Under the pieces are notes generated by a model that was given only the letters and a program-made list of their open reading frames with translations, ran no database searches and was not told the origin of the DNA. From Nemertoderma westbladi (taxonomy: Eukaryota > Animalia > Xenacoelomorpha), in contig JAUCBJ010001864.1 of assembly GCA_032718475.1 (NCBI GenBank), positions 62,001 through 126,000 on the forward strand: a stretch of DNA of 64,000 nucleotides, read 5' to 3'. Of this stretch, positions 30,641 to 57,941 are shown in pieces. Position numbers and translations under genes: made by a program. Position 1 is the stretch's first letter; the number at the start of each line of letters is the position of its first letter.

Positions 30641-32230
30641 ATGTTAATTACCAAGTTTTTACTATCAACTGAAAATAATCCACAACTACCAACCATCCCC
30701 GAACAGCCAGATAACGACTTAGACAAACCAATTGATCCCGCTGAAATCACGGAAGCGGTTTACAGTCAAAAGCCAAATAAAGCAGCTGGTCCGGACGGTA
30801 TCACCGGTGAAGCCTTGAAGTATGGTTTTGGTCACCTGCTTCCGTTTTTACTGACATTGTTTAGTGTTTGTTTCGCAACTGCTGCTTGCCCTGCAACCTG
30901 GCTAAAATCATACCTAATTATGCTCTATAAGGGTAAGGGAAGTAAATTATCCCCGGACTGTTACCGTGGAATAGCGCTACTATCATGTTTGTTTAAAGTA
31001 TATACTTCGATATTATTTACACGCTTATATGAATTTGCAGAACGCCGAGGTCTACTACCAGATGCGCAACACGGTTACAGAAAATCACGTTCGACGATCG
31101 ACGCTGTTAAAAGTCTATATACCCGCATCAATTTTGCCCTTGAACCTAAGGGTGGCCATTTATACTGCGTATTTGTTGATTTTCGAAAATGTTTCGACTC
31201 GATAAACCGAGAGATTCTCTGCAGGAAATTATCGAAACTCGGAGTAAGTCGAAAGTTTATTATCGCTATCTGGTCTATGATCGCTATCAACTACATATAT
31301 ATCTGTGTTGGAGTTCACATTCTGGAGCCTATTACTCAAACAATTGGAGTTGTACAAGGCGATAAACTGTCTCCTTTACTTTTTAGTCTTTTTGTATCAG
31401 ACCTACCAGCCTATCTCATATTCGCATCAATTTGGATCATAATGTATGCTGATGATCTAGTCATATCAGGTGACTCTATCGCGGAGGTTCAAGCTAGTCT
31501 AGACAAACTCTCAGAATATTGTGAAGTAAATGGAATCCAGGTCAATATTGCGAAGACAAAGGTGGTTAAGTTCCGGAAGGGGGGGAGATTATCGAGGACT
31601 GACATTCTAGAATATAACGGGCAGAAATTGGAATTTCAAAGCTCCTTTCAATATTTAGGAGTTACTCTCTCAACGAAAAATGGATCCAGAGGACACTACG
31701 ATCATCTATACTCGAAAGGACTCTCCAGTTGTGTTGTAATTGCAACAAAGGTAAACCTACACATCGTTTCGCTAGAATCCGCCCAACGTTTATGGCAGTC
31801 TATTGTCCTTCCATCGACCACTTATGGCTGCAACGTCTTCACTGCAAATGGTGACCTAACGCAACTGGATCATGTTAAACGTGTCCGCGGTTTTTACTGG
31901 AAACTCTGGTGTGGAATAAGCAAGTTTGCCTCCACCACAGCCATCCTAAGTGCCATAGACAACCCGGCTAACTCAGATCCAAACATGACAGGTCTCACAG
32001 GTTTCCGACGCCGCGTGGCAGCGCAGCTATTATCAAACGGTTGCCACCACCGCCTATGTACGAAACTCAATTGCTGGAGACCCACGGAAGACTGCACCTG
32101 TTGGGTGTGTGGCTCCCTGGCGGCAAACACAGACCACTACAAACTATGTACGCGCATACCTCAGTGCAGTTCACACCTAAAGACAGCAATTTGGCTGATG
32201 ACGACAGATGCTGCAACACTAACTATTTAA
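30641..32230 (+). CDS. Non-LTR reverse transcriptase with C-terminal Cys/His cluster (first 6 codons are satellite-derived)
   Basis: KAAGPDGI, YRGIALL, QHGYR, FVDFRKCFDSI, GVVQGDKLSPLLF, MYADD, FQYLG; C-terminal CHHRLC..C..CTCWVC..H..C. Confidence 0.88.
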   Translation: MLITKFLLSTENNPQLPTIPEQPDNDLDKPIDPAEITEAVYSQKPNKAAGPDGITGEALKYGFGHLLPFLLTLFSVCFATAACPATWLKSYLIMLYKGKGSKLSPDCYRGIALLSCLFKVYTSILFTRLYEFAERRGLLPDAQHGYRKSRSTIDAVKSLYTRINFALEPKGGHLYCVFVDFRKCFDSINREILCRKLSKLGVSRKFIIAIWSMIAINYIYICVGVHILEPITQTIGVVQGDKLSPLLFSLFVSDLPAYLIFASIWIIMYADDLVISGDSIAEVQASLDKLSEYCEVNGIQVNIAKTKVVKFRKGGRLSRTDILEYNGQKLEFQSSFQYLGVTLSTKNGSRGHYDHLYSKGLSSCVVIATKVNLHIVSLESAQRLWQSIVLPSTTYGCNVFTANGDLTQLDHVKRVRGFYWKLWCGISKFASTTAILSAIDNPANSDPNMTGLTGFRRRVAAQLLSNGCHHRLCTKLNCWRPTEDCTCWVCGSLAANTDHYKLCTRIPQCSSHLKTAIWLMTTDAATLTI

Positions 32231-32486: not shown

Positions 32487-33589
32487 ATAGGATCCGGGAA
32501 GGGGTGTGAAACGCGGATTTTAGTTAATTACCAAGTTTTATTGGATCCGGGAAGGGGTGTGAAACGCGGATTTTAGTTAATTACCAAGTTTTATTGGATC
32601 CGGGAAGGGGTGTAAAACGCGGATTCATGTTAATTTACCAAGTTTTATAGGATCCGGGAAGGGGTGTGAAACGCGGATTTTAGTTAATTACAAAGTTTTA
32701 TTGGATCCGGGAAGGGGTGTGAAACGCGGATTCATGTTAATTACCAAGTTTTATAGGATCCGGGAAGGGGTGTGAAACGCGGATTTTAGTTAATTACAAA
32801 GTTTTATTGGATCCGGGAAAGGGTGTGAAACGCGGATTTTTGTTAATTACCAAGTTTTATTGGATCCGGGAAGGGGTGTAAAACGCGGATTCATGTTAAT
32901 TTACCAAGTTTTATAGGATCCGGGAAGGGGTGTAAAACGCGGATTCATGTTAATTACCAAGTTTTATAGGATCCGGGAAGGGGTGTGAAACGCGGATTTT
33001 AGTTAATTACAAAGTTTTATTGGATCCGGGAAGGGGTGTGAAACGCGGATTTTAGTTAATTACCAAGTTTTATTGGATCCGGGAAGGGGTGTAAAACGCG
33101 GATTCATGTTAATTTACCAAGTTTTATAGGATCCGGGAAGGGGTGTGAAACGCGGATTTTAGTTAATTACCAAGTTTTATTGGATCCGGGAAGGGGTGTA
33201 AAACGCGGATTCATGTTAATTTACCAAGTTTTATAGGATCCGGGAAAAAGGGGTGTGAAACGCGGATTTTAGTTAATTACCAAGTTTTATTGGATCCGGG
33301 AAGGGGTGTAAAACGCGGATTCAAGTTACGCGGATTCAAGTTAATTACCAAGTTTTATTGGATCCGGGAATGGGTGTAAAACGCGGATTCATGTTAATTA
33401 CCAAGTTTCATTGGATCCGGGAATGGGTGTAAAACGCGGATTCAAGTTAATTACAAAGTGCGGTATCCGTCGTTATTATTACACGTATATATATTTACTA
33501 CAATCTCCATCCTATAAATTATGTCTTTAAATTAAGTCCTCATGAGGTGCTATGGCTGCAGGTCAGTATTAATCGCCAGGTCATATTAT

Positions 33590-38217: not shown

Positions 38218-38631
38218 GTAGAACTGTATGTATGATGCACAACAGCATTAGGCCAGGCTATGACTGGCAGACTGGTCTGGTGCTTAGATCGTATCTTTTC
38301 CAGTTAATTTATTTTATTTAATTTTGTATAAAAATTAAAACAAGTGAATTGGTTGGAGAAAGTTGCTAGGCCTACTAAGCAGCAACTACTTCCAGTCCAC
38401 AGGTTCTTAAGATATGCGTTATGAATTTCAAAGCTAGCTGTCGTTTTACGGTAGGCCTAAAACAAACTTATCATTTGAGGTTAATGCGTTACTCCTACCG
38501 ATAAAACAGTTCGTTTTTGTGGCATAGGACAATAATTCAGTGTTTTCGGCTCCTAAAACTGTAGAATTTTATAAAGATAATTAAGTAATTTATTGACGTT
38601 CTGTTATTATTTTCTTGTATTTCTCTTTAAG

Positions 38632-39186
38632 GTTTACGGATTTTACGATGAATGTATGACAAAGTACGGTAACGCTAATGCATGGCGTCACTGTACCCGT
38701 GTGTTCGATCTGCTCACCATAGCGGCCATTATAGACGAGCACATACTCTGCGTACACGGTGGACTGAGCCCAGACATCCGCACCATAGACCAAATACGAG
38801 TGATAGACCGCCAAGTCGAGATCCCCCACAAGGGGGCGTTCTGCGACCTGGTCTGGTCCGACCCCGAGGACGTGGACACCTGGGCGATCTCTCCTCGGGG
38901 GGCCGGCTGGCTGTTCGGGGCGCGAGTTACCGAGGATTTCATCCGGATTAACGGACTCAGACTCATCGCTCGAGCTCACCAACTCGTCCACGAGGGTTAC
39001 AAGTACATGTTCGATGATAAACTCGTGACCATCTGGTCGGCGCCCAACTATTGCTATCGTTGCGGGAATATCGCGGCTATACTGAAGTGCGACACGGTTG
39101 ATTCCCGCGAACCGCGACTGTTTAAGGCCGTCCCGGATGACGAACGGGTAGTCCCTGCCAGAACAACAACTCCTTATTTCCTGTAA
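38632..39186 (+). CDS. PPP6C: PP6 catalytic subunit, exon 2
   Basis: tttaAG acceptor; [54 protein letters not shown]-terminal TTPYFL*; spliced product 304 aa; AATAAA at about 39288 and 39335. Confidence 0.95.
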
Positions 39187-41580: not shown

Positions 41581-41871
41581 TCGTGGCTCGTTCCACAGTA
41601 TATTAATTTAATACAGTTCCAATTTAATAATTTATTTAATATAGTTCCATCTAACAACTTTTGTTATTGGGTTATTTAATACGCATGACCATTCAGTTTG
41701 ATAAAACATTACTTTTGTTACATTATGTTTAAATTAACAGCGTTCTGGTGAATTACTCGTAACGCTGCAAAGTTGCAACGTTTTGCAGCGTTGCGGCCTA
41801 TAGGACGGAACGCTGCAAAGTAATCAATGACATGGAAACAATTTCAATTAACGTATTCCAGAATGTATTAT

Positions 41872-44123
41872 TGATGAATTATTTCACTATAAGATAGCAT
41901 TTGTAGTTTAACTTTAACGTAAAAACTTTCGAAAATCCGACGTATTTTGATTGAGTTACAGTAATGTAATATGCCTATTCATATTTGTACACATAAAACC
42001 CCTAGGTACTCTCGTGGCGTAGTGGTCAGATGGTTAAGGCGTTGGTTACATTACATAGGTTACGAGTTCGAATCCCAGTCGGGAAATTTGTATTTTGGGG
42101 CCATTTATTTTCGTTTGGTGCTAATTGGTAGGCCAATGAGAAGCGTACAGCGTAGCGAATGATGAGCCAGGCCAATCATAGGGCATAAATTATCTTATTG
42201 CTCAAATGTGAGGCAGTGGAAAATTCTGTTAGGATTCCATGTCCCAGATTAGTGTAAGGGCCGGACTGCGTTGAACGATGAGCTGGGCCAATCATAGGGC
42301 ACGAAGCACTTCATTGCTCAATTGTGAAGCTGTGGAAAATTCTGTTTAGTTTCCATGTGCAATTTCTAGTATAAAAAGGCCGGTTTGCCTTCGGTTATCA
42401 CCTTCTTTGTAAAACTCTTATTTTGTAAAATTAGTTTATTCGGTTTCTTGTTGAAACTTTATTTGATAAATCCTTTTGTAAAACTGTAAATATACTGCAA
42501 TTTCCTGACATGTTTTCTTTTGGTCCGACTTCGGGACAGCCGAACACCAGGGAGATGGCAGCCTAGATCGTTAGGCCGTAAGCAACGCAGGGAAGGGATG
42601 TCCACAACACGCTAGCGCCCACATTGGATCGACCGCGCACCCCCTTTGCCCCTTCGAAATACTCCACTTGCTATGCAGCGCCCGCTTTGTGAGAAGGTAA
42701 GACTTTGTTCGACGCCCTTGCCCGCCGTAAGACCTATAGATCAGGGTAAGCGTGACATCGTACTGGACGCCGCAAATTTAGGATCAAATAATTATATCCA
42801 GACACCCCCCCTTTGTCAAGTCCTACGAATCCCTGGGTTAACCTGTACTTCCTACAGGTGCGAACTATTGCCATTCGTCAGTACGCGAGTACATATTAGG
42901 TACGGACAGCACATGTTCCATAATTTAGTGATTCATAGCACTGACTGTTTGGTACCGGTTCGCTTTGTAGAACGTACATTAGTACCCCCCCCCCCCCCCC
43001 CTCTGTCTGGAGTTAGCTATTTGATCAGGCAAGGAGCATTTCTGCTACCGGCACACTGCTTGGCCTAGGGAGGTTTATTAATATCCTACCGCGCCTTGCC
43101 ACGTACTGATAGGTATTGCTGCTAACTACCGCAGCAACAAAGTTCTAGAATTAAATTAGTATACCAGATCAGCTAACGTACGGTAGCGATTAACCCCTAT
43201 TCTTATCTTACAACCAGAATCTGGTATTAGTGCCGATCACGGGTGTAGTTACTAACACTGTGGTTGCCCATTGGGTTGTGGATAGGAAGGAGAGAGCTTT
43301 GACGTCATTTGTGAGTATAAAGTTCTACAAACGCGACTAGTTTATTTTAGTAGCTAGCGCACGGTATCATTTAGTCAGAAAATCACTAAAACCTAGTAAA
43401 AGGAATTACACGAAATTGTTTTATTTGTAACACACCCACACACACACGCCCTAAAACATATTGCCCTTAAAGTTCTACTAGCTATAGCGTACTATACATT
43501 ACGTTAGGTGGAAATTATCTGTATTTGTAAAATTAGGATCTGATTTAGTTGCGGCAAGATAAGGAGTATTTCACTTTCGTTATTAAACTGTTGTTTGTCT
43601 GGACAACGGTATTGTTACATTTAGGCCTGACCTTTTAGACTGATTTCGTACAGGGGGATCAGTTATTGTTACATTTAGGCACGACCTTTAGGCTGATTTC
43701 GACAGGGATGATCAGCATTGTTACACTAGGTCTGTTAACCACCTAGTTCGTATATAACCCATATAAATCACACCGCGGCAAGTTACTGTATTTAGGACTG
43801 TCAGTGATAGTTAGGATTCGCTGCGTGGGGATTGTTTTCCCGTGAGTTTGGTCTGTTACTGTAACTGTACATCTGCCTCACCGGTTAGAGGACAGGTATC
43901 CTTCTGTCTAGTACGTAGGCATTAGACCCGCTCACGTACATAGAATAGATACAAGGCTCTGTTCCTCGCCAGTAGTCGTTTGTGTACTATATCTGTTTGT
44001 TTAGATATCCTGGACTGGGATTTGTTGTCAGATACTGTACAAGCCCGTATACATTACTAGAGTCTCATAGTAAGATACATCGTTACTAGGATCTGGTAAG
44101 CGGTATACTACTGGACCCTTACA
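41872..44123 (+). repeat. 5' LTR (2252 bp)
   Basis: Starts TGATGAATT and ends CCCTTACA; three CCAAT boxes and TATAAAA at 42370; TGACGTCA at 43300 followed by TATAAAA at about 43317. Confidence 0.95.
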
Positions 44124-45117
44124 GTAGGAAGTACTATATAAATTAGTGTATAGTATTGTTAGATCTGTACGCTTTGTAGTGCGTGCGCACTACAATAGTA
44201 GGAAGTATATTAGACAAATTCTGAAATTAGCGTATAGTATAGTTTAGAATTGTTAGCTATTGAAAGTAGGAGATATTTAAAATTTAAGGTTAGTAAATTT
44301 AGTAATTTAGAACGTCCCCTGCTTCAGTAGGCTTTTAGGGTAGCTAGTACTTTCGTATTTAATATTTGACTAGCTAACAGTTAGTTTGTAGCACTTTGTT
44401 TTACGCCGTGTGTGTGCGGTGTTACTTTTCGGTACTTGAAAAGGTACATAGGGTTTAAAGACCAATTTGTATCGGTACCTAGGAAGATTTTTCGTAAGCG
44501 TAGAAGTAAAACTCTCACCTTCGACCTTTTCAGGACTCAAGGACTCATTTCTGGACCGCTTCGAGGATTAGACCGCTTTTCGCAAAGTTTGGGAGACAAT
44601 AAATTCGTCCGCGCCGCCGAAAAACGGAAAGACCCACGTCCGGTTTGTATTTGGGAATTTGTACGACTGGAAGATCAAAGGAACGTAAGTTTTACGACTC
44701 GCGTCGTTCAAACTTAAGAAAGCACAGTAGTACTCAAAATTTGTGGGTTTCACTGTCTATTAGTAGTGTTGTTGGTACTTATTTTCCCGTTAGACGTTGC
44801 TGTTTGGCCTATTGTTTATACTTGTTGATCTATATTTTGTTAACGTATACCGTTATCTCACTTATTCGTACAAATTTAGCCGGTAGGCTAGATTACTACT
44901 TATTTTATTATATACTTTGTTAGTTTATTTGTACCGGTTAGGATATATATATGATATATATATATATCAAGGTAAGTTTGACATTTGTACATTTCGACAT
45001 TTTGACATTTCGACATTCTGACTTGTTGATTTATTTGTACCGGTTAGGTAAGTTCGACACTTCAACATTCAGACACTTTGACATTTTATTACCCGTACTT
45101 GACGTATATAATAAGAC

Positions 45118-48100
45118 ATGAGTGACACACCCCATTCGACGAGATACCCACCTACCGACTATGACTCGTGCGACCCGGACAGATCGACAGTAGACGAACC
45201 GAGAAGGAGAACCCGAGATTCCACCGATGTCACACCGCTTGCGTCGCCGGTACCCCGAACGGAAATACCGGAAGCCGCAACGCGTGGCGACAGCAGGATC
45301 GAAGATTTCCTTACCGTCCCGCAGACTAGATCGCGGGAACCGGACATGGTAAGTTCGACTGGAAGCCAGGAGAACGTTATTAGAAGTATAGGAGGACACA
45401 TGGCCCAGATTACTCGGAACCTCGGAGAAGGTTTTCGCGTTTTACGCGAGTTAACCGCCCCGATGTCGAGATACGAGTTCTACACCTTACAGGTAAGGAT
45501 AGAAAGTAGGGTACATGCCTCCGTAGATAAACTTAAAGGTTTGCACGAACTTGCAGAGTTGCGTGGCGACAACTTTACTCAGGTAAAGATAGTAGATAAA
45601 TTGGTAAGTGCGAGAGAAAGCCTTATCCAGTTTAAGTCGGTAATAAGCTTGGCTCAACAGGAGCAGTTCGACCAACTGCTAGGTGAGTCAGTTTCGGACG
45701 CGTTGTTACAACCCGAAGAGGAAGAAGAACTCTACTGCCTGGACGGAAGGTTGGAAACGCTGACCAATTTTCTTCGTAGATGCGGCGTACCGATCGACGA
45801 ACCGGAAGTCGAACCGCGAGGGACGACGGAAGTTCTCACTACGGAAGGCTCGCGAGCCTACCAACATCCACCGCTGGATAGATCGTTTGTTAGCGTACGG
45901 AGCGACGTTGGCAACGTTGGCGACGTTAGTAGAACAGCGTCTGGAATTACTCGACAACAACAGGAGGTTGCACGCCGACAACAAGTCGCCGAGGAAGAAG
46001 CGCGACACCAGATGGCACAGATCGCCATCGAAGGAGAGAAACAACGTAGAGAAGACGAGGCAAGAATTGCACAACTCAAGGCGCAAGCTGAATTCGAAGC
46101 ATCAGAAATGCGCAGACTGGAGGAGGACTTAGCGCGAGAAGCGGCAGCCGACGAGTTAGCACGGCAGAAAGCAGCATCCGACGTTCGTGCCAAGTTGGAG
46201 GCGCGGCAAATAAACGCTCGATTAGCTATACAGGAAGCGGAATTAGCGGCACAACAACAGGACGCAGATCGACGCGAAAGGGAGATGCAACTACAGTTCG
46301 AATTGAATCGTAGATCGCGCGAGACAGCGAACGCGCAAGCGGACCTCGAACTCGACGCGAGAGATAGATCTATGAGATCGCGAACTGGACACGACTTGTC
46401 TGCCCTGGATCGTATGGAAGCTCGATATCGCGGAATACAGAAGCGGATCGAGGAAGGAAGCGTGGGAGCGATAGATCGAGGAGAGGAGTTCGTCGAGGAT
46501 TACTGCAAACGTTTTCCCCAAGTTATTCCTATGCTCAAACCCACGACTCCGATAAAACCGGTCTTCGTTACGAAACCTAAGGAAATAACGCCTGTGCGTT
46601 CGACGCAAGGCAACAGGTTTGTTGTGACGGAAATACCGCAACCTAGGGCGACTTCATCGCCAATTTTAGCAGGTAACATAACTAGTCCACCTACAGTAAG
46701 TCGTAGTCTACTTGTAGGAAGAGAGGAACCTGCGTTTATGACCATTAAACAGGTGAGTAAACCATTACAAGTTAAACCTGTGACGTGCTGTGCAAATCCA
46801 GTTATTTACAGACCGACTACGAAACCCGACTATTTCACTCGACCGTTGACACAATGTTCGACGCAACCTACGACTTCGTGGAAGGCTTGCGAGCCTACCG
46901 AACTACGGAGGAGGATGGAGGTGGGTAGTACCCACGGGATCGGACAACGTATAGCGAGACCTACGACTTCGTGGAAGGCTTGCGAGCCTACCGAACAACG
47001 GAGAGCCGTAGATTCCGGACCGCAACGGACGAAAACGAGAGTAATACGCCGGACACGAACCCGCCAACCACCTTATCCGGACGACAGCGATTCATCTAGT
47101 GACTCGGAGTCGACGGAACGGGAAATATTCCGTACTGGAGCGGCGGAAGATTGCAAACGAGAGGAGAGATCGACGAACCCCTATATCGACAATCCTCCAC
47201 GAGAAACACCCCAACAGAAACCCACGTTGAAACCAGCGGAAACGATCAGCGCTAAACAGTTCACCGAGATGACGGACAGAATAGCTCAACTCGAAGAACG
47301 ACTCGAAGCGCAACCGTCGGATCGATCACGAACCAGCGTGGAGTTGGAACAACCTAGACAACATCGACCACCGAGGAGAGAACAGGAGACTAGACGGACT
47401 CCGACACATCGAAAAGAAGATCCCGTTAATAATTCCTACCGACGAACAACGCGCGGAAGGGAGCGACTGGACGACGCCGCCGAACAGGGACGCGGACAGT
47501 TGGATTTGGTTAGCGAGATTGCGAAATTCGCGGCTAGACACGGATTACCGGCACAGCAACCGCCGAAGTTCTCTGGCAACGCGAAACACTGGCGCACACT
47601 GGTAGACTACGTAGAGTCCCAGATCGCTAAGTGTGCTTTCACCTCGACGGAGAAGTTTAACTACTTGCTCCAAGTCCTGTCTGGTGAGCCGAAACGATTA
47701 GCGGAAACCTTTATTGGTGTTCCCGATGCCTTTGAATTGGCGTACGACCGTTTGTATTCGATTTACGGCGGTAATGTCGCCATGGCTAAATCCATTATAG
47801 AAGACCTCTGCAGAGGAGGCAACATTTCGAGACCGATCGACCTTTTACGACTCGCGGACGAAATAAAGAACGCTATAGGGACTTTACGGTCCATTGGACA
47901 ACTCGAGTACGCTAACGCACCGACGGTTCTCATTCGAATAATCGGTCGACTTCATCATCGACTACGACGAGAATGGCGATGCATCGAGTACCAGCGCGAA
48001 GAGGCCGGAGGGTTATTAAAACTCACCGATGTCTATCAACTTATTTCACGGGAGGCCGTGATTGAGACTCGATCGAACTATACCGATCACCATATCGCGG

Positions 48101-51100
48101 CGGAAGGGATAACTGTTTCTGCGCCGAATCGGACTAAACCGTTTCCGACGAACGCGAAAGCCGTTACTTACGCCACCCCTACTGAGACTTCTAAAGTTCT
48201 GACGCCTATCGGCACCACGCAGCCACGACAACAGTTGCCGGCGGACTTTGTGGGATGCTCATACTGCGAGCGGAACGGCAGAAACCATAGCGGACATAAA
48301 CTACGTGGATGTCGCGCTTTTAAAGAGTTAGGGATCGAGGAAAGGAGACTCCAAATCCGATCTCTAGATTCCTGTTGGAGATGTATGAAGCCAGGACACG
48401 TCCGGAAGGATTGCCCGAGCGACGATACATGTTCTTTGTGTGGACGTAACCATGACGCGTTGCTTCACACAACCAGTCATACTCCGACCCGACGCTTTCG
48501 ACGAGAGCATCCCGATAAAGCGGCTAGATGCGACGCGCTTTATAAGGAGCGTGCGCCGCGCGAGATCCGTACCTTTTATACCGACTGTATGGATCAGTCA
48601 GGATCATCGGACGAGGACGAGGAGGAAGACGACACTTTCTACGTGCATGCAGGTGAGGAACAGCCATCGATAACGCTCCTCACACAGAACCAATTGAAAG
48701 GGTTTAGCGTGATTCCTATAAAGATTACCGGAACCCGAGGGAGCAAGCGTATATACGCCATCTTAGACTCTGCGTCATCGCATAGCTATGTCGACGAACA
48801 AGTAGCCGACGTAGTTACGGACTTGAGTCAAGGTAAGACTGCTCAGTATACTGTAAGCAGCATGTATGGTAAGAGAGCGATTCCTGTGACGAGAGTAAAA
48901 CTAACCTTAGACACTCTTCTTTCCAAAGCGGAACACAGCAAGGAGGAGCGCTCATTACTTCCGGTAAGAAATTTGACCTTTGCAGCTACGAAGGACTTTA
49001 GTAACTTGCTCGGCCCTGTGCCAGAGCAATCACCGGAAGATCGTAAGTATTTCCGACACCTTGGAATACCGGAATGTCCTGTCAATTATCGTTCCATTGC
49101 GATGTTAATTGGGACAGACCAGTTTAACTTACATCAGGTATGGGAGACACGCCCATCTGTTATTACAGCGGGCAACCCCTACGCATGTAGAACTCCCATA
49201 GGTTGGTATACTAGAGCACCAATACGTTCACTAGAGGTAAGTGACCAGGAGGACGACGTTTTGAGTATGTGTAGTTTATTGACTAACACGATAGATAATT
49301 CTCCTTCACACTCCCGTGGTCCAATTGTACGGACGGCACTACGACAGACTCGCGTCACTAACACAGACGCCACCGATACTGACGTAACCGATCTGGACAC
49401 GACCATACGGACCTCTGACTTACAACTACTTGCAGTAGACCAGGTTGTATTGACTACTGAAGACCTGAGGGTTGTTGCCGTGGATGACTCGATGAACGAA
49501 GATTTTGGAAGGCTTGCGAGCCTACCGAAAAATCCGAAGGTCATTGACCCCACCCACCAGGCTTCGACACCGGTCGTTGATCTTGGAAGGCTTGCGAGCC
49601 TACCGATAGATCAAGAGGTTGTCAAACCGCCGCACGACAATTCGACGCCGACTAGTGACACCGGAAGGCTTGCGAGCCTACCAGACACATTGACACTAGC
49701 CACCGCAGCGGACGAAGACGTGGACGAGGACCATGGCGCAGTGCAAGCAGCGCTTGACCGACTGCTGACTGAACGGACCATTCAATGGTTGGAACAGGAC
49801 TCAGCAGAACCCGGTAGTTACGAGACCGCTATGTCAGAACAGGAAAAACGGTCATTAAATATTATGAGAGATACCATTCGCCAGACCGCGAATGGCCACT
49901 ATGAGGTTGGTATGTTGTGGCGCGATGGACAACCTAAGCTCGTTAACAATTACCCGCTTGCTTTGAGGCGACTCAAATCAATAAGGCAGCGATTGTTGCG
50001 AGACGAGACGGCCCATATGCAATACAATGCACAACTTCAGACGTATCTCCAAAGGGGATACGCCATTAGGATGTTAAATCCTGAGGTAACCACAGACCAG
50101 ACATATTACCTGCCACATCATTTTGTTCGACACCCGGACAAACCTGGCAAGGTGCGTGTAGTCAACGACTGCGCTGCACTTTACCAAGGGATGTCTATGA
50201 ATAGCGAACTGATGGACGGGCCGAATATGAATAATTACCTCATGGGAGTCCTAATGCGTTTTAGACAACGCAAAGTGGCTTTCACCTGTGACGTAGAGGC
50301 CATGTTTCACCAGGTTAAGGCTTTGGAGCGGGACAGGGACAGTTTGAGGTTTCTTTGGTATCCGGACGGAAACTTACAACTTCCGCCAGAAACTTACCAA
50401 ATGCAGGTAAGAGTATTCGGAGCCAGGGACAGCCCCAACTGCACCATGTACGCCTTAAAGCAGACAGCATTAGACAGACGAGACCAATTTGACCCAGAAG
50501 TAGTTCGGACCGTGGAACGAGACTTCTACGTGGATGACGGCCTCAAGAGTTGTGACACCTTGGAGCGCGCTACAACCGTAGCACACCAACTCCAGGATTG
50601 TCTCGCTGAGGGCGGATTTCACCTGACGAAGTTCGCTTCCAACGAACCCGAACTGGTGAACTCATTTGACCCGATGGATCGTAGCGGAGGTGACTTGGAC
50701 TTAGACTTAGAACCTCTGCCGACGACCAAAGTATTAGGACTTAGTTGGGACCCTAACACCGACAATTTTAGGGTACGTGTAAGGTCCAACGACCAGACTA
50801 GACCTCTCACAAAGAGGACTTGCTTATCGACCATGAGTCGATTGTATGACCCATTGTGTTTCATTAGTCCAGTGATCCTACATGCCAGGATCATACTCCG
50901 CAGCATTTGGCAAGCCGGACTGGAATGGGACGATCCCATCCCAGAAAAGTTAGCTGAGCGATGGAGGGACTGGGAAGCCCAACTGACGTTCCTACAAGAC
51001 TATACCATACCAAGGGTATACCATACGCGGCTAGTTTACCCGGAATTCGTTTTTTATCGGCACATTTTTTGGATTAGGAGCCAGTGCGAAATCACGCGAA

Positions 51101-51114
51101 CCCGAAATCATTAG
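45118..51114 (+). CDS. BEL/Pao Gag-protease-RT polyprotein, truncated before the RNase H catalytic motifs and integrase
   Basis: Coiled-coil N-terminus, PPKFSG..W capsid region, Cys/His knuckles (CWRCMKPGHVRKDC, CSLCGRNH), protease LDSAS, YYLPHH, DVEAMFHQV, LRFLW, FYVDD, KVLGLSW, LYDPL, WDDPIP; homology ends at IPRVY (about 51022). Confidence 0.93.
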   Translation: MSDTPHSTRYPPTDYDSCDPDRSTVDEPRRRTRDSTDVTPLASPVPRTEIPEAATRGDSRIEDFLTVPQTRSREPDMVSSTGSQENVIRSIGGHMAQITRNLGEGFRVLRELTAPMSRYEFYTLQVRIESRVHASVDKLKGLHELAELRGDNFTQVKIVDKLVSARESLIQFKSVISLAQQEQFDQLLGESVSDALLQPEEEEELYCLDGRLETLTNFLRRCGVPIDEPEVEPRGTTEVLTTEGSRAYQHPPLDRSFVSVRSDVGNVGDVSRTASGITRQQQEVARRQQVAEEEARHQMAQIAIEGEKQRREDEARIAQLKAQAEFEASEMRRLEEDLAREAAADELARQKAASDVRAKLEARQINARLAIQEAELAAQQQDADRREREMQLQFELNRRSRETANAQADLELDARDRSMRSRTGHDLSALDRMEARYRGIQKRIEEGSVGAIDRGEEFVEDYCKRFPQVIPMLKPTTPIKPVFVTKPKEITPVRSTQGNRFVVTEIPQPRATSSPILAGNITSPPTVSRSLLVGREEPAFMTIKQVSKPLQVKPVTCCANPVIYRPTTKPDYFTRPLTQCSTQPTTSWKACEPTELRRRMEVGSTHGIGQRIARPTTSWKACEPTEQRRAVDSGPQRTKTRVIRRTRTRQPPYPDDSDSSSDSESTEREIFRTGAAEDCKREERSTNPYIDNPPRETPQQKPTLKPAETISAKQFTEMTDRIAQLEERLEAQPSDRSRTSVELEQPRQHRPPRREQETRRTPTHRKEDPVNNSYRRTTRGRERLDDAAEQGRGQLDLVSEIAKFAARHGLPAQQPPKFSGNAKHWRTLVDYVESQIAKCAFTSTEKFNYLLQVLSGEPKRLAETFIGVPDAFELAYDRLYSIYGGNVAMAKSIIEDLCRGGNISRPIDLLRLADEIKNAIGTLRSIGQLEYANAPTVLIRIIGRLHHRLRREWRCIEYQREEAGGLLKLTDVYQLISREAVIETRSNYTDHHIAAEGITVSAPNRTKPFPTNAKAVTYATPTETSKVLTPIGTTQPRQQLPADFVGCSYCERNGRNHSGHKLRGCRAFKELGIEERRLQIRSLDSCWRCMKPGHVRKDCPSDDTCSLCGRNHDALLHTTSHTPTRRFRREHPDKAARCDALYKERAPREIRTFYTDCMDQSGSSDEDEEEDDTFYVHAGEEQPSITLLTQNQLKGFSVIPIKITGTRGSKRIYAILDSASSHSYVDEQVADVVTDLSQGKTAQYTVSSMYGKRAIPVTRVKLTLDTLLSKAEHSKEERSLLPVRNLTFAATKDFSNLLGPVPEQSPEDRKYFRHLGIPECPVNYRSIAMLIGTDQFNLHQVWETRPSVITAGNPYACRTPIGWYTRAPIRSLEVSDQEDDVLSMCSLLTNTIDNSPSHSRGPIVRTALRQTRVTNTDATDTDVTDLDTTIRTSDLQLLAVDQVVLTTEDLRVVAVDDSMNEDFGRLASLPKNPKVIDPTHQASTPVVDLGRLASLPIDQEVVKPPHDNSTPTSDTGRLASLPDTLTLATAADEDVDEDHGAVQAALDRLLTERTIQWLEQDSAEPGSYETAMSEQEKRSLNIMRDTIRQTANGHYEVGMLWRDGQPKLVNNYPLALRRLKSIRQRLLRDETAHMQYNAQLQTYLQRGYAIRMLNPEVTTDQTYYLPHHFVRHPDKPGKVRVVNDCAALYQGMSMNSELMDGPNMNNYLMGVLMRFRQRKVAFTCDVEAMFHQVKALERDRDSLRFLWYPDGNLQLPPETYQMQVRVFGARDSPNCTMYALKQTALDRRDQFDPEVVRTVERDFYVDDGLKSCDTLERATTVAHQLQDCLAEGGFHLTKFASNEPELVNSFDPMDRSGGDLDLDLEPLPTTKVLGLSWDPNTDNFRVRVRSNDQTRPLTKRTCLSTMSRLYDPLCFISPVILHARIILRSIWQAGLEWDDPIPEKLAERWRDWEAQLTFLQDYTIPRVYHTRLVYPEFVFYRHIFWIRSQCEITRTRNH

Positions 51115-51248
51115 GCAAAATGGGTTGGGGTTTAGAGCAGAGTTGAGCCAAAAGCCAACAAACTCTGGAGTCACCTCCCATCTAACCTCTATTTTGTGCT
51201 TCATCTAGTAGAAACGTAACGATATGTAACCGCATATATTCGTATACG

Positions 51249-54200
51249 ATGGCGGAGAAGATGTATAAAGAGTTACGTCAAGGGTTTACGCAAGAACAGG
51301 AGCACCAGGCGCCATTCAATCGTTATGGAGCTAAAAACTTTAGTGTGTTTGGAGTGGAGAGTATGGCTAGGAGTACGGCCAAGCTCGCTAAATCCAAGGC
51401 GGACCCGAATGTTAGCGACAGCGGTTGGACGCATACAACAAAAGAACGGAGGAATTACGCGCGGAATACAATGCGTTATATCCCTACGATGCGTTATGCG
51501 ACGCTAGCGACATTTGCGAGGATCCAGACACCGAAATACGCCGATTGTATCATACGCTGCAATATTTGACGGTAAACAAACCTTTACCTGCAGCTAGAGA
51601 CGAATTTGAAGGAATGCATCTTTATAGACGCGCTCGAGGAGCGGATCCAGAGACCAAGGACGCGTTTTCCGTATACAAACTGTTTTATAAATGTGGAGCG
51701 TGTATGCGCGAGCAAGACAACGCGATTCCTATGCGGTTGAACTCGGAGAACCCCGAGCCGATATTAGCGCGATGTTCACACCACCAAAGTCTACGTTACC
51801 AAGAAGGCGGATACCCTTTGACAAATCCGTATCATTCTTTTAAGATGAGTGGACCGAACGCGGGTGAGATCGTTATTTACGAACCTAAATTAGTCGAACC
51901 AGACGTCTACAGCATGGTAGTGGACGAGTCTAACAAGTCGACTCAAGAGAAACGGGAAGCTTTGAGCCTCTACAGGGCGTACAAGGCGTACGAGAAAGGC
52001 GAGATCGAGGAGTTCGGCGGAAGGCTCGCGAGCCTACCATTCTATTGGATATCCCACGATCAAACCGAACCCAAGGAGATGACACCCGAGCTCTTCGATA
52101 GTATCACCTTTGCTCAGCGTTTGTCGCAGAGACTACAGATACCTCACGTTGAGATGACGCGAGAACCTCAGCCCCATTCTACTGGAGCGATAGTATCGGT
52201 TGCGAGACCAACTAGTTTTCCTATTAGTATACCGACCCGGAAGGAGACAACTTACGAGATCCCTATAGTTGAACACCCGGAGATCATCTCGAACCTGGAT
52301 TTCCTCCCATCGGTCACCTTCGGTGATGTGTTAGAATCAACCGAGTTGCGTAAAGTAATAGTTCAAAAAATCGTACGCAACGTGCCTCCACATATCACGG
52401 ACTTTAAGGAAGTGGATCGCGCGGGGACGGATATCGCACCTTGTATCTTGCGAGGATATCTGACGAAAACGATTCGATTATGGATCGGAGTTGGGACGTT
52501 TGAGACCGACACCGATATCGCGACCAATTGGACTGGTAAACCTATTAGTTTCGATGATGAAAAGTCGATCGGGAGAATTTGGAACCCTACCGATGATTTA
52601 CTCGACGATTGGGACGTGACTAGCCGATCTCTGAAAGAGAATGGATATATGTTTTACGATAATGAAGGAGGAAGCCATCAGCAAAGCCTCACTTCAAAGA
52701 CGATACAGATTAGAGCACCAGATGGCGTGTTACATGTCTTCAGCCGACAGAGGAGTGATAGGAAGATGCCTATGCCGGAAGGAACGACGCAAAGACACGC
52801 GATGATAAAACGGATAGTTAAATCCATGGACCTGGCTTGTAGCATAGAAGCTAGGATGTTGCCAAAGGCCGTGCGAGACGTTGTGTTGGATAAGAGCATC
52901 GTCAAGATCGGATCCGGTGTACGGGATGACCTCATTAGCGACTTTGCAGGGATGCCCACGGAAGAGGACCGATTGCCTACGCCATACGTGGATACTAGAC
53001 CATTGTTGCTTTGGGCTATTGAGCAAGGATACTTTAGAGAGTATAACATGCTAAAAACTGGGACGGGTTATATCTCATATCTGATGTTCAGTTGGGATTA
53101 CAAGGAGAGTAAGAGGAACAAATACACGGACGTATACGGAGAGGGAGATACCCCCGGCGTAAACGAGTTCGAGTCACAGTTGAAGTGGCGAGGTTGCGTG
53201 TATTGGGCGATTACTTCACCTCCGCGGATAATCTTGCAATACTATTTAGCGATAGAATCTTCGGTTAACGTTTGTTTCATCGCGGACGTAGTATCCAGAA
53301 CCTTAAAGCGACACCCGTTATGTCTTGGCGAAGGACATACCTTTTACGATGGAGGAAGGACGCATACCGATGTATTCCGACGATTTCTCCAACCCTTTTA
53401 TAACACCGATGCGCACTGCGAAGTTTTCACGCGAGCGGGACTTAGCGTTTTCAGGGACGTCTATCTCACTCACGCGGGAAGTCTAGTTGACAGACCGTCG
53501 ATGTTAACGTTAGTACCCTATGACGGGGAACGCCACGCGGAATTCGAACGCCCGGAAGGATCCTGGAAGGCTCGCGAGCCTACCGCCCATCATGACGATG
53601 TGGATCCGACCGAGTTGGCGCTAATAGACGAACCGTTACGGCAACTCATAGAAATAGAAGAGAACCTTCCAAGGAAGACGCGAACTGAGATACGCGAGTT
53701 AGAGAAAAGCGATGCCATGGTTTGTGTACAACCTACGGAGACGAACATACCGACTGACCCGGATGATGAGAATTATCACGTGGACGGTAGCGCTCGCCCC
53801 ATCGGAGACCTCATCTATGAGCGAGTTTGGTATCCTGCCAACACTATTTGTGGCAGATGTGGAGCAACTGGCCATCACGCAAAGAAGTGCGGAGCGAAGC
53901 ACATATCTCTACCGGATTTAGTATGCAACTGGTGCGGGGATCAACGTTCGCACACTTTCTACACTTGCTGGCGTTTCGTGGCGCAGTGTACTTATTGTAA
54001 TATTAAGGGCCATAGGGCATCTGAATGTCAACTTAGAGACGTCCCCTATGAGCACATGTCAGTTAAAATCGTTCGACAATTATTCGACCATTGGGAGGAT
54101 CTAGCAGACGAGCATGTATCGACGCAGCGACGCCGCTTCCCTATGAGAGCACATTTGGGATTTTGGGCCGTAAACCCTCTCATAATGTCAAAGGAAGGAT

Positions 54201-55003
54201 ATGTATCGGCTATGCCTCAGTACGATGAATTGTTGGAGGTATTGGATATATTGCCGTTGGACAGTGGATTCAAAGTTGTGCGGGACTATTTCTTACAAGT
54301 GCACCCGGACAACAAGAATACTTAGAACTTTCAAACTGTGGTGAACAAGATTACCGCCGGAGAATTCGATAAACTGCGAGTTGAACAGCGGAATCGAGGA
54401 GCCTGGCATTCGATAGCTTGGGCATACCGGAGCGCATTTTATCACAAACGCGTAACCTCGTGCATTCTGGACGAGACCGACGTTTTGCGTGAGACTGGCT
54501 TCAAGGCCACGCCGTTAGCGGAGAAGACGCGTCACCCACAGGATGATCAGCAATTTCGTATACTCAAAGCCCAGAAGGCCGGACAAGAGATTAAGAAGAT
54601 AGTGAATGTCGCCGAGAGGACGACATCGAAATCGCAAATCCGGATGACTCGGGGCACGGTTTCCCTTGCTAGAGAACCACACGGAGGGACAGGATACGCT
54701 TTGACTGAACCCATTAGGATTCAAACGACGTCAGAGAGCGAGGTGTCAACGGACGGAACAGTCCTACCCTTTCGACTTCCTCCTAGCGTTGTAGAAACTC
54801 GATCCGATGTTAAGTCGACAGTTGGAATCGGACGAGGATTTAGAGGATTGAGCGCACGACGGATGTGCGAAACTCCCGTCGTCCCCTTTCCTAGCGTTTT
54901 GGAACCACCGACGACTCGACGCCGAAGTCCGAGCCCAGTTCGACCTCGACCACCCCCCAATCGCACTAGAGGACGTGGACGAGCCCGCTCAGCGAAGGAA
55001 TAG
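51249..55003 (+). CDS. Cargo ORF: DEDDy (WRN/EXD-like) 3'-5' exonuclease, three CCHC knuckles and a basic tail; main open segment 51416-54325, probable frameshift near 51413, in-frame TAG at 54323
   Basis: Exo I FYDNE and IQIRAPDGVLHVF; Exo II LPKAVRDVVLDKSIVKIGSGVRDDL; VDT; Exo III-like QYYLAIE; CGRCGATGHHAKKC, CNWCGDQRSHTFYTC, CTYCNIKGHRASEC. ORF 54338-55003 is in the same frame after a single TAG. Confidence 0.7.
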
Positions 55004-55662
55004 GAAGCGAGTGGAAGGAAGGCTTGCGAGCCTACCGATTTGGATATTATATTTGGATATTATATTTGGATGTTATATTTGGATATTATATTTGGATATT
55101 TTATTTGGATATTTATATTGGACATTATGTTTGAACGTTGGGTTTGGAAGAACGAGATATGGAAAGGAAGGCTTGCGAGCCTACCGTTAGCAATTAGTGC
55201 TCAGGAGAAGATATCCAGACCAGCAGGACGAACTTTTAAGATCGTCAGGAGGACTCTTTAAGACTTATTTGAAGGATTTTAGCGCATTATGTTTATTTTA
55301 TATTTAGACTGATTTAATTTGGTGAATTTATTATGTATATTTACAATATATAAAGATTTATCGAAAGAGTTTGATTTATTTGTTTGATTTGTTTGATTTA
55401 TTTGTTCTGATTTGTTTAATTTGCTTACCTTGATAACCGAAAGCCTTTTTTTTGTATTTTAGGCACTAAAGTTAATTAGTAAATTTGTATTTGTATGTAC
55501 GATCGATTGTATTTACGCCGTATCTGCAATATTAAATATGCAATAATTAGATAGTGATTATATTTTATATTTTAGGCCCTACCAGTAAATTTAGAAATAG
55601 TTTGTAAATATTTTATATTTCGATTGGTGAAAACAGTCTTACTTACTGTTTTCATGGAGCGG

Positions 55663-57936
55663 TGATGAATTATTTCACTATAAGATAGCATTTGTAGTTT
55701 AACTTTAACGTAAAAACTTTCGAAAATCCGACGTATTTTGATTGAGTTACAGTAATGTAATATGCCTATTCATATTTGTACACATAAAACCCCTAGGTAC
55801 TCTCGTGGCGTAGTGGTCAGATGGTTAAGGCGTTGGTTACATTACATAGGTTACGAGTTCGAATCCCAGTCGGGAAATTTGTATTTTGGGGCCATTTATT
55901 TTCGTTTGGTGCTAATTGGTAGGCCAATGAGAAGCGTACAGCGTAGCGAATGATGAGCCAGGCCAATCATAGGGCATAAATTATCTTATTGCTCAAATGT
56001 GAGGTAGTGGAAAATTCTGTTAGGATTCCATGTCCCAGATTGTAAGGGCCGGACTGCGTTGAACGATGAGCTGGGCCAATCATAGGGCACGAAGCACTTC
56101 ATTGCTCAATTGTGAAGCTGTGGAAAATTCTGTTTAGTTTCCATGTGCAATTTCTAGTATAAAAAGGCCGGTTTGCCTTCGGTTATCACCTTATATTATG
56201 TCACTTCTTACCACTTTGTAAAACTCTTATTTTGTAAAATTAGTTTATTCGGTTTCTTGTTGAAACTTTATTTGATAAATCCTTTTGTAAAACTGTAAAT
56301 ATACTGCAATTTCCTGACATGTTTTCTTTTGGTCCGACTTCGGGACAGCCGAACACCAGGGAGATGGCAGCCTAGATCGTTAGGCCGTAAGCAACGCAGG
56401 GAAGGGATGTCCACAACACGCTAGCGCCCACATTGGATCGACCGCGCACCCCCTTTGCCCCTTCGAAATACTCCACTTGCTATGCAGCGCCCGCTTTGTG
56501 AGAAGGTAAGACTTTGTTCGACGCCCTTGCCCGCCGTAAGACCTATAGATCAGGGTAAGCGTGACATCGTACTGGACGCCGCAAATTTAGGATCAAATAA
56601 TTATATCCAGACACCCCCCCTTTGTCAAGTCCTACGAATCCCTGGGTTAACCTGTACTTCCTACAGGTGCGAACTATTGCCATTCGTCAGTACGCGAGTA
56701 CATATTAGGTACGGACAGCACATGTTCCATAATTTAGTGATTCATAGCACTGACTGTTTGGTACCGGTTCGCTTTGTAGAACGTACATTAGTACCCCCCC
56801 CCCCCCCCCCCCCCTCTGTCTGGAGTTAGCTATTTGATCAGGCAAGGAGCATTTCTGCTACCGGCACACTGCTTGGCCTAGGGAGGTTTATTAATATCCT
56901 ACCGCGCCTTGCCACGTACTGATAGGTATTGCTGCTAACTACCGCAGCAACAAAGTTCTAGAATTAAATTAGTATACCAGATCAGCTAACGTACGGTAGC
57001 GATTAAACCCTATTCTTATCTTACAACCAGAATCTGGTATTAGTGCCGATCACGGGTGTAGTTACTAACACTGTGGTTGCCCATTGGGTTGTGGATAGGA
57101 AGGAGAGAGCTTTGACGTCATTTGTGAGTATAAAGTTCTACAAACGCGACTAGTTTATTTTAGTAGCTAGCGCACGGTATCATTTAGTCAGAAAATCACT
57201 AAAACCTAGTAAAAGGAATTACACGAAATTGTTTTATTTGTAACACACCCACACACACACGCCCTAAAACATATTGCCCTTAAAGTTCTACTAGCTATAG
57301 CGTACTATACATTACGTTAGGTGGAAATTATCTGTATTTGTAAAATTAGGATCTGATTTAGTTGCGGCAAGATAAGGAGTATTTCACTTTCGTTATTAAA
57401 CTGTTGTTTGTCTGGACAACGGTATTGTTACATTTAGGCCTGACCTTTTAGACTGATTTCGTACAGGGGGATCAGTTATTGTTACATTTAGGCACGACCT
57501 TTAGGCTGATTTCGACAGGGATGATCAGCATTGTTACACTAGGTCTGTTAACCACCTAGTTCGTATATAACCCATATAAATCACACCGCGGCAAGTTACT
57601 GTATTTAGGACTGTCAGTGATAGTTAGGATTCGCTGCGCGGGGATTGTTTTCCCGTGAGTTTGGTCTGTTACTGTAACTGTACATCTGCCTCACCGGTTA
57701 GAGGACAGGTATCCTTCTGTCTAGTACGTAGGCATTAGACCCGCTCACGTACATAGAATAGATACAAGGCTCTGTTCCTCGCCAGTAGTCGTTTGTGTAC
57801 TATATCTGTTTGTTTAGATATCCTGGACTGGGATTTGTTGTCAGATACTGTACAAGCCCGTATACATTACTAGAGTCTCATAGTAAGATACATCGTTAGT
57901 AGGATCTGGTAAGCGGTATACTACTGGACCCTTACA
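55663..57936 (+). repeat. 3' LTR (2274 bp)
   Basis: Near-identical to the 5' LTR; preceded by a short purine-rich GGAGCGG and a 10-bp hairpin (55628-54); followed by the TSD ATTAT. Confidence 0.95.
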
Positions 57937-57941
57937 ATTAT

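What the first reader, a model, noticed from the sequence alone, without database searches (positions are those of the whole stretch)
51020..55003. BEL/Pao element in which RNase H and integrase are replaced by a 3'-5' exonuclease + triple CCHC cargo gene
Seen: pol homology stops at IPRVY, just before the RNase H 'LHxFxDAS' motif expected in BEL/Pao, and no integrase HHCC/DDE follows. A second same-strand gene of roughly 1250 codons then occupies the pol-3'/env position. Known: D-x-E, IQI-x-x-PDG-x-x-x-VF and LP-x-x-V-x-x-V-x-x-D-x-S-I-x-K-I-G-x-G-V-x-x-D are hallmarks of WRN/EXD2/Mut-7-type DEDDy exonucleases. Inference: an RNA-binding exonuclease carried by a retroelement could trim its own primer or RNA, or counter small-RNA silencing. 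The cargo contains the element's own 20-nt hairpin twice, so it is a long-resident part of the element, not a recent capture. I know of no BEL lineage described with this cargo.
Basis: partly seen in the sequence, partly recalled or inferred. Interest (0 to 1): 0.85.

Follow-up and report, generated by a model that had tools for sequence, protein, structure and literature searches.

The report
BEL/Pao retrotransposon with exonuclease-like extra gene
A young, unusually large jumping gene of the BEL/Pao group carries an extra gene predicted to encode an RNA-binding 3'-to-5' exonuclease, a cargo my literature searches found only in other transposon groups, while its missing RNase H and integrase are most likely a deletion in this one copy, not a replacement.

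Summary
The element spans 41872-57936, with 2.25-kb LTRs (4 substitutions) and a 5-bp target duplication. Pol homology stops at IPRVY (51021), and no RNase H or integrase sequence is found in the window.

'Replaced' is not supported. Contigs in all four laid runs leave the window's sequence at 51021, contigs in three rejoin it at 51026, and none of 25 listed pieces (of 421) bridges the joint. This copy most likely has an internal deletion.

The cargo (about 1,250 codons, 51249-55003) is real. It is broken here by a frameshift and a stop that many or all sibling contigs lack, and it has a predicted splice acceptor like an env gene. It has three CCHC knuckles and a probable WRN/EXD2-type exonuclease domain. 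Motif II is significant against shuffles and the ESM Atlas score is 0.94, but there is no Pfam, PDB or database homolog, and motif III has E for D.

DEDDy cargo is already known in rotifer Ty3/gypsy-like elements; I found no BEL/Pao report. The most likely role is a separately expressed nuclease that blunts small-RNA silencing (untested). Verdict: new variant of a known kind.

The parts
41867..41871 (.). 5' target-site duplication (ATTAT)
   Evidence: same 5 nt at 57937-57941
41872..44123 (+). 5' LTR, TG...CA, 2252 nt
   Evidence: 4 substitutions in 2249 aligned columns and 3 indels against the 3' LTR
42845..42855 (+). 11-mer in the LTR that is the exact complement of the primer-site position (second copy 56654-56664)
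   Evidence: only 3 of 11,516 internal positions reach 11 nt of complementarity to the LTR
44124..44134 (+). primer-binding-site position; no TGG start; predicted self-priming site
   Evidence: function inferred
44970..45053 (+). two predicted splice donors (AG|GTAAGT, intron starts 44972 and 45048) upstream of the gag ATG
   Evidence: 2 of the 3 perfect matches in the element; use not shown
45118..51021 (+). gag-pol: DUF1759, three zinc knuckles (48256-48470), protease motif (48757), RT YVDD (50527), ends at IPRVY; the frame runs on in unrelated sequence to a stop at 51114
51019..51026 (+). deletion scar: siblings leave at 51021 and rejoin at 51026; 51022-51025 belong to neither flank; 51019-51026 repeats 51003-51010
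51182..51208 (+). predicted splice acceptor (branch point, pyrimidine tract, AG) 40 nt before the cargo ATG
   Evidence: 1 of 2 such matches in the 11.5-kb internal region
51249..55003 (+). cargo gene, about 1,250 codons; broken in this copy by a frameshift near 51414 and a stop at 54323-54325
52589..53308 (+). probable WRN/EXD2-type exonuclease domain: D52658, E52664 (motif I), D52928 (motif II), Y53243 and E53255 (motif III, placed by eye)
53849..54028 (+). three CCHC zinc knuckles
   Evidence: (zf-CCHC E 8.7e-4, two stretches, just under the curated cut-off)
45843..55185 (+). ten dispersed copies of a 20-nt hairpin (45843, 46880, 46973, 49507, 49585, 49663, 52019, 53565, 55017, 55166), in all three frames
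55038..55133 (+). 13-nt tandem repeat in the 3' untranslated region, between two hairpins
55663..57936 (+). 3' LTR, 2274 nt
57937..57941 (.). 3' target-site duplication

Best explanation
This is a recently inserted copy of a multi-copy BEL/Pao family that most likely lost RNase H and integrase by an internal deletion, and whose env position holds a resident accessory gene predicted to be spliced and to encode a WRN/EXD2-like 3'-5' exonuclease with three CCHC knuckles, likely acting on small or cleaved RNAs to blunt host silencing. SHOWN: element anatomy, loss of pol homology at 51021, extra DNA at that junction in sibling contigs, cargo frame, CCHC knuckles and motif II similarity. INFERRED: (a) the extra sibling DNA is RNase H and integrase; (b) an LTR-driven transcript is spliced from the donors at 44972/45048 to the acceptor at 51208, giving a cargo protein separate from Gag-Pol that works in trans; (c) the knuckles grip single-stranded RNA and feed 3' ends to the nuclease, as in trypanosome RNase D; (d) the substrates are silencing-pathway RNAs directed at the family. 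Step (d) is the weakest. Confidence is about 0.9 for the deletion, 0.8 for an exonuclease-fold domain and 0.4 for the whole chain.
For: DELETION: loose ends behind 51021 in X1 (18 contigs), X3 (8), X4 (1) and X5 (1), the last two 255+ letters long. Loose ends before 51026/27 in X1 (9), X3 (3) and X4 (1). Depth collapses in bin 51022-27, and in X4 and X5 no contig crosses it. The break lies where 108 of 118 relatives run into RNase H. A copy with 0.18% LTR divergence and a 5-bp duplication needed an integrase recently.

RESIDENT CARGO: covered along its length in X1, X3 and X4, with divergent pieces at about 82% identity and 0-2 gaps over 321-397 nt. Codon usage correlates with gag-pol (r 0.71; off-frame 0.47-0.49). 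It shares the hairpin.

EXONUCLEASE: a profile of 34 bacterial WRN-like exonucleases (its seed hits WRN at E 2e-17) ranks the cargo first of 2,993 window segments, at 8.0 bits against a maximum of 4.3 in 1,000 shuffles. hhalign scores 34.3 against 23.3 (150 shuffles) and 25.1 (120 real polyprotein pieces). The ordered motif chain scores 64.4 against a null maximum of 40.3. ESM Atlas: 0.94, 174-177 shared features with WRN-like/PF01612 clusters, where 38% of members carry the family.

ROLE: splice signals; no transmembrane segment, so not env-like (max hydropathy 1.48). Exonuclease plus CCHC trims RNA tails in TbRND (PMC7797062). Arenavirus ExoN suppresses innate immunity (PMC7968707). Mut-7, Nibbler and EXD1 act in small-RNA pathways (PMC5408684 discussion; partly recalled).
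Against: No direct evidence of function: no expression, activity or small-RNA data. The sibling DNA at the junction could not be annotated, and in X1 and X3 a rare bridging contig cannot be excluded (396 of 421 pieces not shown).

Sequence support for the exonuclease rests mostly on motif II. Motif I alone ranks 5th in the protein, the LQL-type block and motif III are not picked at the by-eye positions, and motif III has E for D. hhalign probability is only 26-53%. Unrelated six-frame segments reach 6.4 bits (6,108 segments). Atlas recognition was 2275, under its 2300 line, and the longer query scored only 0.76. Pfam, NCBIfam, PDB, two homolog searches and the representative search gave nothing real.

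The rotifer study found no clear link between DEDDy ORFs and copy number (PMC5408684).
Confidence: 0.4

Rival explanations
1. The cargo is an active exonuclease that works on the element's own nucleic acid: recruited by the dispersed hairpins, it trims unpaired 3' ends of the genomic RNA, primer or cDNA, or proofreads reverse transcription and so permits an element of about 18 kb.
For: Ten element-specific hairpins. The element and its LTRs far exceed the ICTV ranges of 4.2-10 kb and 0.2-1.2 kb (PMC8742986). Nidovirus ExoN proofreading accompanies genome growth (PMC7968707). 3'-end processing was proposed for rotifer ORF3s (PMC5408684) and Dada transposons (PMC3706591).
Against: The cargo is a separate gene with splice signals, so packaging is not assured. 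None of 80 related BEL/Pao loci has a cargo match. The primer site fits Tf1-like self-priming, which needs no exonuclease (mechanism recalled).
Confidence: 0.25
2. The exonuclease fold is catalytically dead or weak and acts as an RNA adaptor, like Egalitarian or EXD1, binding the element's hairpins to localise or protect its RNA.
For: E in place of the fourth D, and insertions in the core. Egalitarian's exonuclease domain binds an RNA localisation signal (bioRxiv 10.1101/2025.08.03.668247, abstract). The hairpins keep nucleotide sequence across frames.
Against: Acidic residues sit at all four expected positions. Only 1 of 5 hairpins tested folds well beyond shuffles (z -3.3; the others -0.3 to -1.2).
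Confidence: 0.15
3. The cargo is a real RNA-binding protein gene but not an exonuclease; the motif II match is chance or a small borrowed segment.
For: All family and database searches are blank. The single-sequence model had pLDDT 32. The fold hits come from a model built on a forced alignment.
Confidence: 0.15
4. One reading: the family has swapped RNase H and integrase for the exonuclease gene.
For: In this copy the cargo does follow truncated pol within 230 nt.
Against: Sibling contigs in four runs carry other DNA from exactly 51021. The junction has a deletion-type filler. An exonuclease cannot do hybrid cleavage or strand transfer (established knowledge).
Confidence: 0.04

Closest known systems
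DEDDy exonuclease ORF3 of bdelloid rotifer Juno and Vesta LTR retrotransposons and of Athena/Terminon retroelements (PMC5408684; PMC6431247)
   Same: Stand-alone DEDD-type exonuclease gene downstream of pol in the env position; an altered acidic tetrad (DEED there); function untested.
   Different: Here the RT is BEL/Pao, while those lineages are Ty3/gypsy-like (recalled). The cargo is about 1,250 codons with three CCHC knuckles and two unassigned regions, and the tetrad reads DEDE. Homology to the rotifer ORFs could not be tested.
BEL/Pao retrotransposons (Belpaoviridae; PMC8742986, PMC3118150)
   Same: TG...CA LTRs, target duplication, single gag-pol frame with DUF1759, triple knuckle, Peptidase_A17; RT 40-47% identical to marine-invertebrate BEL/Pao polyproteins.
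   Different: LTR 2.25 kb and element 16 kb even with the deletion; no tRNA-type primer site; third gene not env-like; this copy lacks RNase H and integrase.
Trypanosoma brucei RNase D (TbRND; PMC7797062)
   Same: 3'-5' exonuclease domain followed by tandem CCHC fingers that bind RNA.
   Different: A cellular guide-RNA trimming enzyme with four fingers; no sequence match to the cargo, so architecture only.
WRN / EXD2 / Mut-7-Nibbler / EXD1 / Egalitarian exonuclease domains (PF01612)
   Same: Motif II segment, DxE in motif I, nearest ESM Atlas clusters.
   Different: About 30-residue insertion before motif II, E at the motif III position, below every family cut-off.
Dada DNA transposons of Laccaria and Ectocarpus with a DEDDy domain (PMC3706591)
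   Same: Transposon-encoded DEDDy exonuclease.
   Different: A DNA transposon, with the domain inserted inside the transposase.

Membership tests
BEL/Pao (Belpaoviridae) | LTRs with TG...CA ends and target-site duplication | tested here: met
BEL/Pao (Belpaoviridae) | Gag with DUF1759 and triple zinc knuckle; protease; BEL-type RT/Peptidase_A17 | tested here: met
   all 120 listed homologs carry PF05380
BEL/Pao (Belpaoviridae) | RNase H and integrase after RT, in this copy | tested here: not met
   so the copy is filed as a deletion derivative, not an autonomous member
BEL/Pao (Belpaoviridae) | RNase H and integrase in sibling copies | tested here: inconclusive
   siblings carry extra DNA from 51021 but it was not annotated
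BEL/Pao (Belpaoviridae) | 18-nt tRNA-complementary primer-binding site (ICTV profile) | tested here: inconclusive
   no TGG after the LTR, an 11-nt self-complement instead; 0 of 12 related loci had TGG there either (some LTR ends rough); host tRNAs were not available to compare
DEDDy 3'-5' exonuclease, WRN/EXD2 type (PF01612) | Motif I D-x-E on the first strand | tested here: met
   D52658/E52664 chosen by the ordered chain; alone it ranks 5th in the protein
DEDDy 3'-5' exonuclease, WRN/EXD2 type (PF01612) | Motif II with its aspartate | tested here: met
   D52928; block score 42.1 against next-best 8.0
DEDDy 3'-5' exonuclease, WRN/EXD2 type (PF01612) | Motif III Y-x-x-x-D | tested here: inconclusive
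   only Y-x-x-x-E (53243/53255), placed by eye; not selected by the block scan or hhalign
DEDDy 3'-5' exonuclease, WRN/EXD2 type (PF01612) | Match to the Pfam model above cut-off | tested here: not met
   so it is called exonuclease-like, not filed as a member
DEDDy 3'-5' exonuclease, WRN/EXD2 type (PF01612) | RNase H-like DEDD fold | tested here: inconclusive
   alignment-guided model pLDDT 58; best Z 7.0, rmsd 4.5, 151 aligned, top rows DEDD domains, but circular; single-sequence model pLDDT 32
DEDDy 3'-5' exonuclease, WRN/EXD2 type (PF01612) | Metal-dependent 3'-5' nuclease activity | not testable with these tools
   needs an assay
Rotifer retroelement DEDDy ORF3 pool | Sequence kinship with Juno/Vesta/Athena ORF3s | not testable with these tools
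   those sequences were not returned by any search
env-like third gene | Transmembrane anchor or fusion glycoprotein homology | tested here: not met
   max 19-residue hydropathy 1.48; no Pfam hit

The most novel reading that the evidence does not exclude
An animal BEL/Pao family of about 18 kb encodes its own spliced, zinc-knuckle-guided 3'-5' exoribonuclease that destroys or mis-trims the piRNAs/siRNAs aimed at it, using ten dispersed hairpins to mark its own RNA as self: an enzymatic anti-silencing gene in an animal retrotransposon.
Probability: 0.25. Interest if true: 0.85.

Novelty: new variant of a known kind. Interest (0 to 1): 0.5.

Why it matters
Exonuclease cargo in LTR elements has been described in bdelloid rotifers, with no function shown. 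This case extends the arrangement to BEL/Pao, in a young and apparently abundant family, with a much larger protein that adds RNA-binding knuckles and has an element-specific hairpin as a candidate ligand. That makes a standing question testable on an isolated natural domain: do animal retrotransposons carry enzymes against small-RNA silencing? The element's size (16 kb with the deletion) is above the 15-kb bound used to choose between overlapping calls in one BEL/Pao survey (PMC3118150), so such families may be under-sampled. The headline of an integrase-free lineage does not hold.

Tried and rejected
No genome is held for the window, so copies could not be collected by LTR search.

Cargo homolog searches found nothing: proteins of 532-1696 aa; 155-496 aa, E<=1; one hit, P0121, a repetitive protein rejected as chance; metagenome and genome contigs; phages, plasmids; E 6-10 only; PDB. 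Longer or shorter length classes were not searched.

The single-sequence AlphaFold model was unusable. The alignment-guided model and its fold hits are circular and not counted as independent support. No RNA holder is listed on record; X5 is only guessed to be RNA, so expression and splicing were not tested. dN/dS could not be computed because only 40 of 1,284 variant rows are shown. Depth was not used as copy number.

Nested insertion: no repeat pair bounding the cargo among the listed families, and no listed joint removes exactly the cargo (15 of 165 joints shown). I rejected it, but weakly.

The viral contigs held no relative of the RT and no hairpin match. Rfam and ARAGORN found nothing credible. 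The N-terminal cargo piece was translated in the wrong frame and redone.

Literature searches that found no BEL/Pao element with an exonuclease: (open-access library only; Repbase and GyDB not searchable; no supplements read).


Full report
ANATOMY. The finding lies in an LTR element at 41872-57936. The LTRs (41872-44123, 55663-57936) begin TG and end CA, differ by 4 substitutions in 2,249 columns plus 3 indels, and are flanked by a 5-bp duplication, so the insertion is recent. A single gag-pol frame from ATG 45118 matches DUF1759 (E 4e-9), Peptidase_A17 (E 4e-18, only profile positions 1-72 of 162) and weakly RVT_1. Its RT region finds 1,031 proteins; the 120 listed are 40-47% identical and all carry PF05380, and the named ones are from marine invertebrates. 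LTR and element size exceed the ICTV ranges for Belpaoviridae (PMC8742986, whole text read).

THE POL BREAK IS REAL. IPRVY ends at 51021. Of 120 relatives, 118 align to that point, a median of 701 residues follow, and 108 of the 118 show LHxFxDAS about 12 residues later. A profile of 99 tails of 500-800 residues finds nothing in six frames of the window (best E 6.5).

IT IS MOST LIKELY A DELETION, NOT A REPLACEMENT. No genome is held, so I laid four public runs from four studies on the element (4 of the 9 listed; X1 may be the window's own source). On 50932-51111, contigs leave the window's sequence behind 51021 in all four runs: 18 in X1, 8 in X3, 1 in X4, 1 in X5, the last two with 255 or more unlike letters. 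Others join it before 51026/27 (9 in X1, 3 in X3, 1 in X4). Summed depth in bin 51022-27 falls to 3,018 in X1 (neighbours 13,602 and 27,676) and 4,731 in X3 (15,049 and 18,812). In X4 the 21.3 is fully explained by one contig starting at 51026, and X5 has 0. None of the 25 listed pieces bridges the joint; 396 were not shown, so a rare bridging contig in X1 or X3 is not excluded. Four bases (51022-25) belong to neither flank, and 51019-26 repeats 51003-10, as in a templated repair or template-switch scar (inference). That the extra sibling DNA is RNase H and integrase is inferred from its position and from the need for an integrase; it was not annotated.

THE CARGO IS A RESIDENT GENE. It runs from ATG 51249 to 55003 (about 1,250 codons), broken here by a frameshift near 51414 and a stop at 54323-25. 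All laid depth in X1, X3 and X4 differs from this copy inside that stop codon. About half of the depth in X1 and X3, and all in X4, differs at the frameshift. Divergent contigs align to the cargo at about 82% identity with 0 gaps over 321 and 397 nt and 2 gaps over 380 nt, which suggests old subfamilies under selection for the frame. Codon usage follows gag-pol (r 0.71). A branch point, pyrimidine tract and AG lie at 51182-51208 (1 of 2 such matches in the internal region), and two of the element's three perfect donors lie just upstream of gag: the layout of a spliced env-position gene, untested by RNA. There is no transmembrane segment. The 20-nt hairpin occurs 10 times in the element, in all three frames, twice in the cargo, and not elsewhere in the window; its folding beats shuffles clearly in only 1 of 5 copies tested. 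Among 80 related BEL/Pao loci from metagenomes (best 80 of 435), none matches the cargo (best E 0.19-0.57). In 26 of the 60 loci with a pol-end match, a direct repeat follows within 0.1-1.5 kb, leaving no room for such a gene (some repeats are short contig-end overlaps). The cargo is therefore lineage-specific in this sample.

IS IT AN EXONUCLEASE? Probably (about 0.8). Standard searches are blank. I built a profile from 34 stand-alone Bacteroidota exonucleases whose seed matches WRN and EXD2. It ranks the cargo first of 2,993 window segments (8.0 bits; single-target E 1e-4; maximum 4.3 in 1,000 shuffles and 1.0 in 120 polyproteins, but 6.4 in 6,108 unrelated six-frame segments). hhalign gives score 34 against null maxima of 23 and 25, at probability only 26-53%. 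An ordered four-block scan picks motif I at DNE and motif II, scoring 64.4 against a null maximum of 40.3, but 42.1 of that comes from motif II, and motif III is not picked where I place it by eye (Y-x-x-x-E). The ESM Atlas gives 0.94 with 174-177 shared features to WRN-like clusters for the trimmed domain, with recognition 2275 (below the tool's line), and 0.76 for a longer query. The alignment-guided model (pLDDT 58) matches DEDD domains in its top rows (best Z 7.0, rmsd 4.5, 151 aligned), but this is circular. Three CCHC knuckles follow at 53849-54028. The N-terminal 450 residues and the C-terminal part are unassigned.

HOW IT MOST LIKELY WORKS. Intact copies would replicate with their own RT, RNase H and integrase. 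The 11 nt after the 5' LTR are the exact complement of LTR 42845-55 (3 of 11,516 positions do as well; noticed post hoc). This points to Tf1-like self-priming (PMC6317226 passages list the groups that use it; the RNase H cleavage step is recalled), which argues against the exonuclease being needed for the primer. A separately spliced protein with RNA-binding knuckles and a nuclease from the family that contains Mut-7, Nibbler and EXD1 is best placed to act in trans on small or cleaved RNAs. I commit to anti-silencing at 0.4 for the whole chain. Rivals are processing or proofreading of the element's own nucleic acid (0.25), a dead RNA adaptor like Egalitarian (0.15), no exonuclease (0.15) and true replacement (0.04). 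None of these functions was tested.

COMPARISON AND NOVELTY. DEDDy ORF3s downstream of pol are described for rotifer Juno and Vesta elements and shared with Terminons (PMC5408684, parts 1-3 of 5 read; PMC6431247 passages). Dada DNA transposons also carry one (PMC3706591 passages). Exonuclease plus CCHC fingers occurs in TbRND (PMC7797062 passages). Viral ExoN roles come from PMC7968707 (passages) and Egalitarian from the abstract of 10.1101/2025.08.03.668247. PMC6338049, PMC13524379, PMC3118150 and PMC6934838 were seen as passages and PMC12440569 as abstract. Seven searches showed no BEL/Pao element with this cargo; Repbase, GyDB, subscription journals and supplements were not seen and could hold one. 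Unchecked earlier notes of this scan report self-priming in other BEL/Pao elements and Rrp6-like cargo in other LTR elements; they lower the surprise and are not counted as support.

VERDICT. Observation partly confirmed; replacement not supported; exonuclease-like CCHC accessory gene probable. New variant of a known kind, interest 0.5.

Noticed in passing
window 44124-44134 and 42845-42855: The primer-site position is an exact 11-nt complement of a stretch inside the LTR, suggesting Tf1-like self-priming; none of 12 related loci exceeded 8 nt in the same rough test. The LTR 11-mer also sits in a 7-bp hairpin and an acceptor-like context.
   Followed up: partly
window about 42011-42085 (and the 3' LTR copy): tRNA-like stretch with A-box and B-box look-alikes inside the LTR (read by eye); ARAGORN and Rfam call nothing. 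Possibly a SINE remnant or a Pol III promoter.
   Followed up: partly
window 44682-51288 and 51810-54873: Sibling contigs show other deletion derivatives: one skips all of gag-pol but keeps most of the cargo (X4), another skips most of the cargo including the exonuclease-like domain and knuckles (X3, X4).
   Followed up: no
window 45118-49500: Gag-pol up to the junction is about 1,970 residues against a median of 1,277 (maximum 1,534) in 71 long relatives; part of the extra length is short repeats built around the 20-nt hairpin.
   Followed up: partly
window 5-3258, 6272-19656, 24652-25715, 27152-30659, 32487-33459: Large tandem arrays with periods 67, 46, 52, 53 and 53 nt, strongly G-skewed; the 46-nt array has about 290 copies.
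   Followed up: no
window 23218-24690 (-), 30611-32230 (+), 38581-39186 (+): Three other open frames of 490, 539 and 201 codons outside the element; not examined.
   Followed up: no
window 42157-42358: Two 86-nt repeats (81% alike) in the LTR ahead of a TATA-like box at 42370.
   Followed up: no
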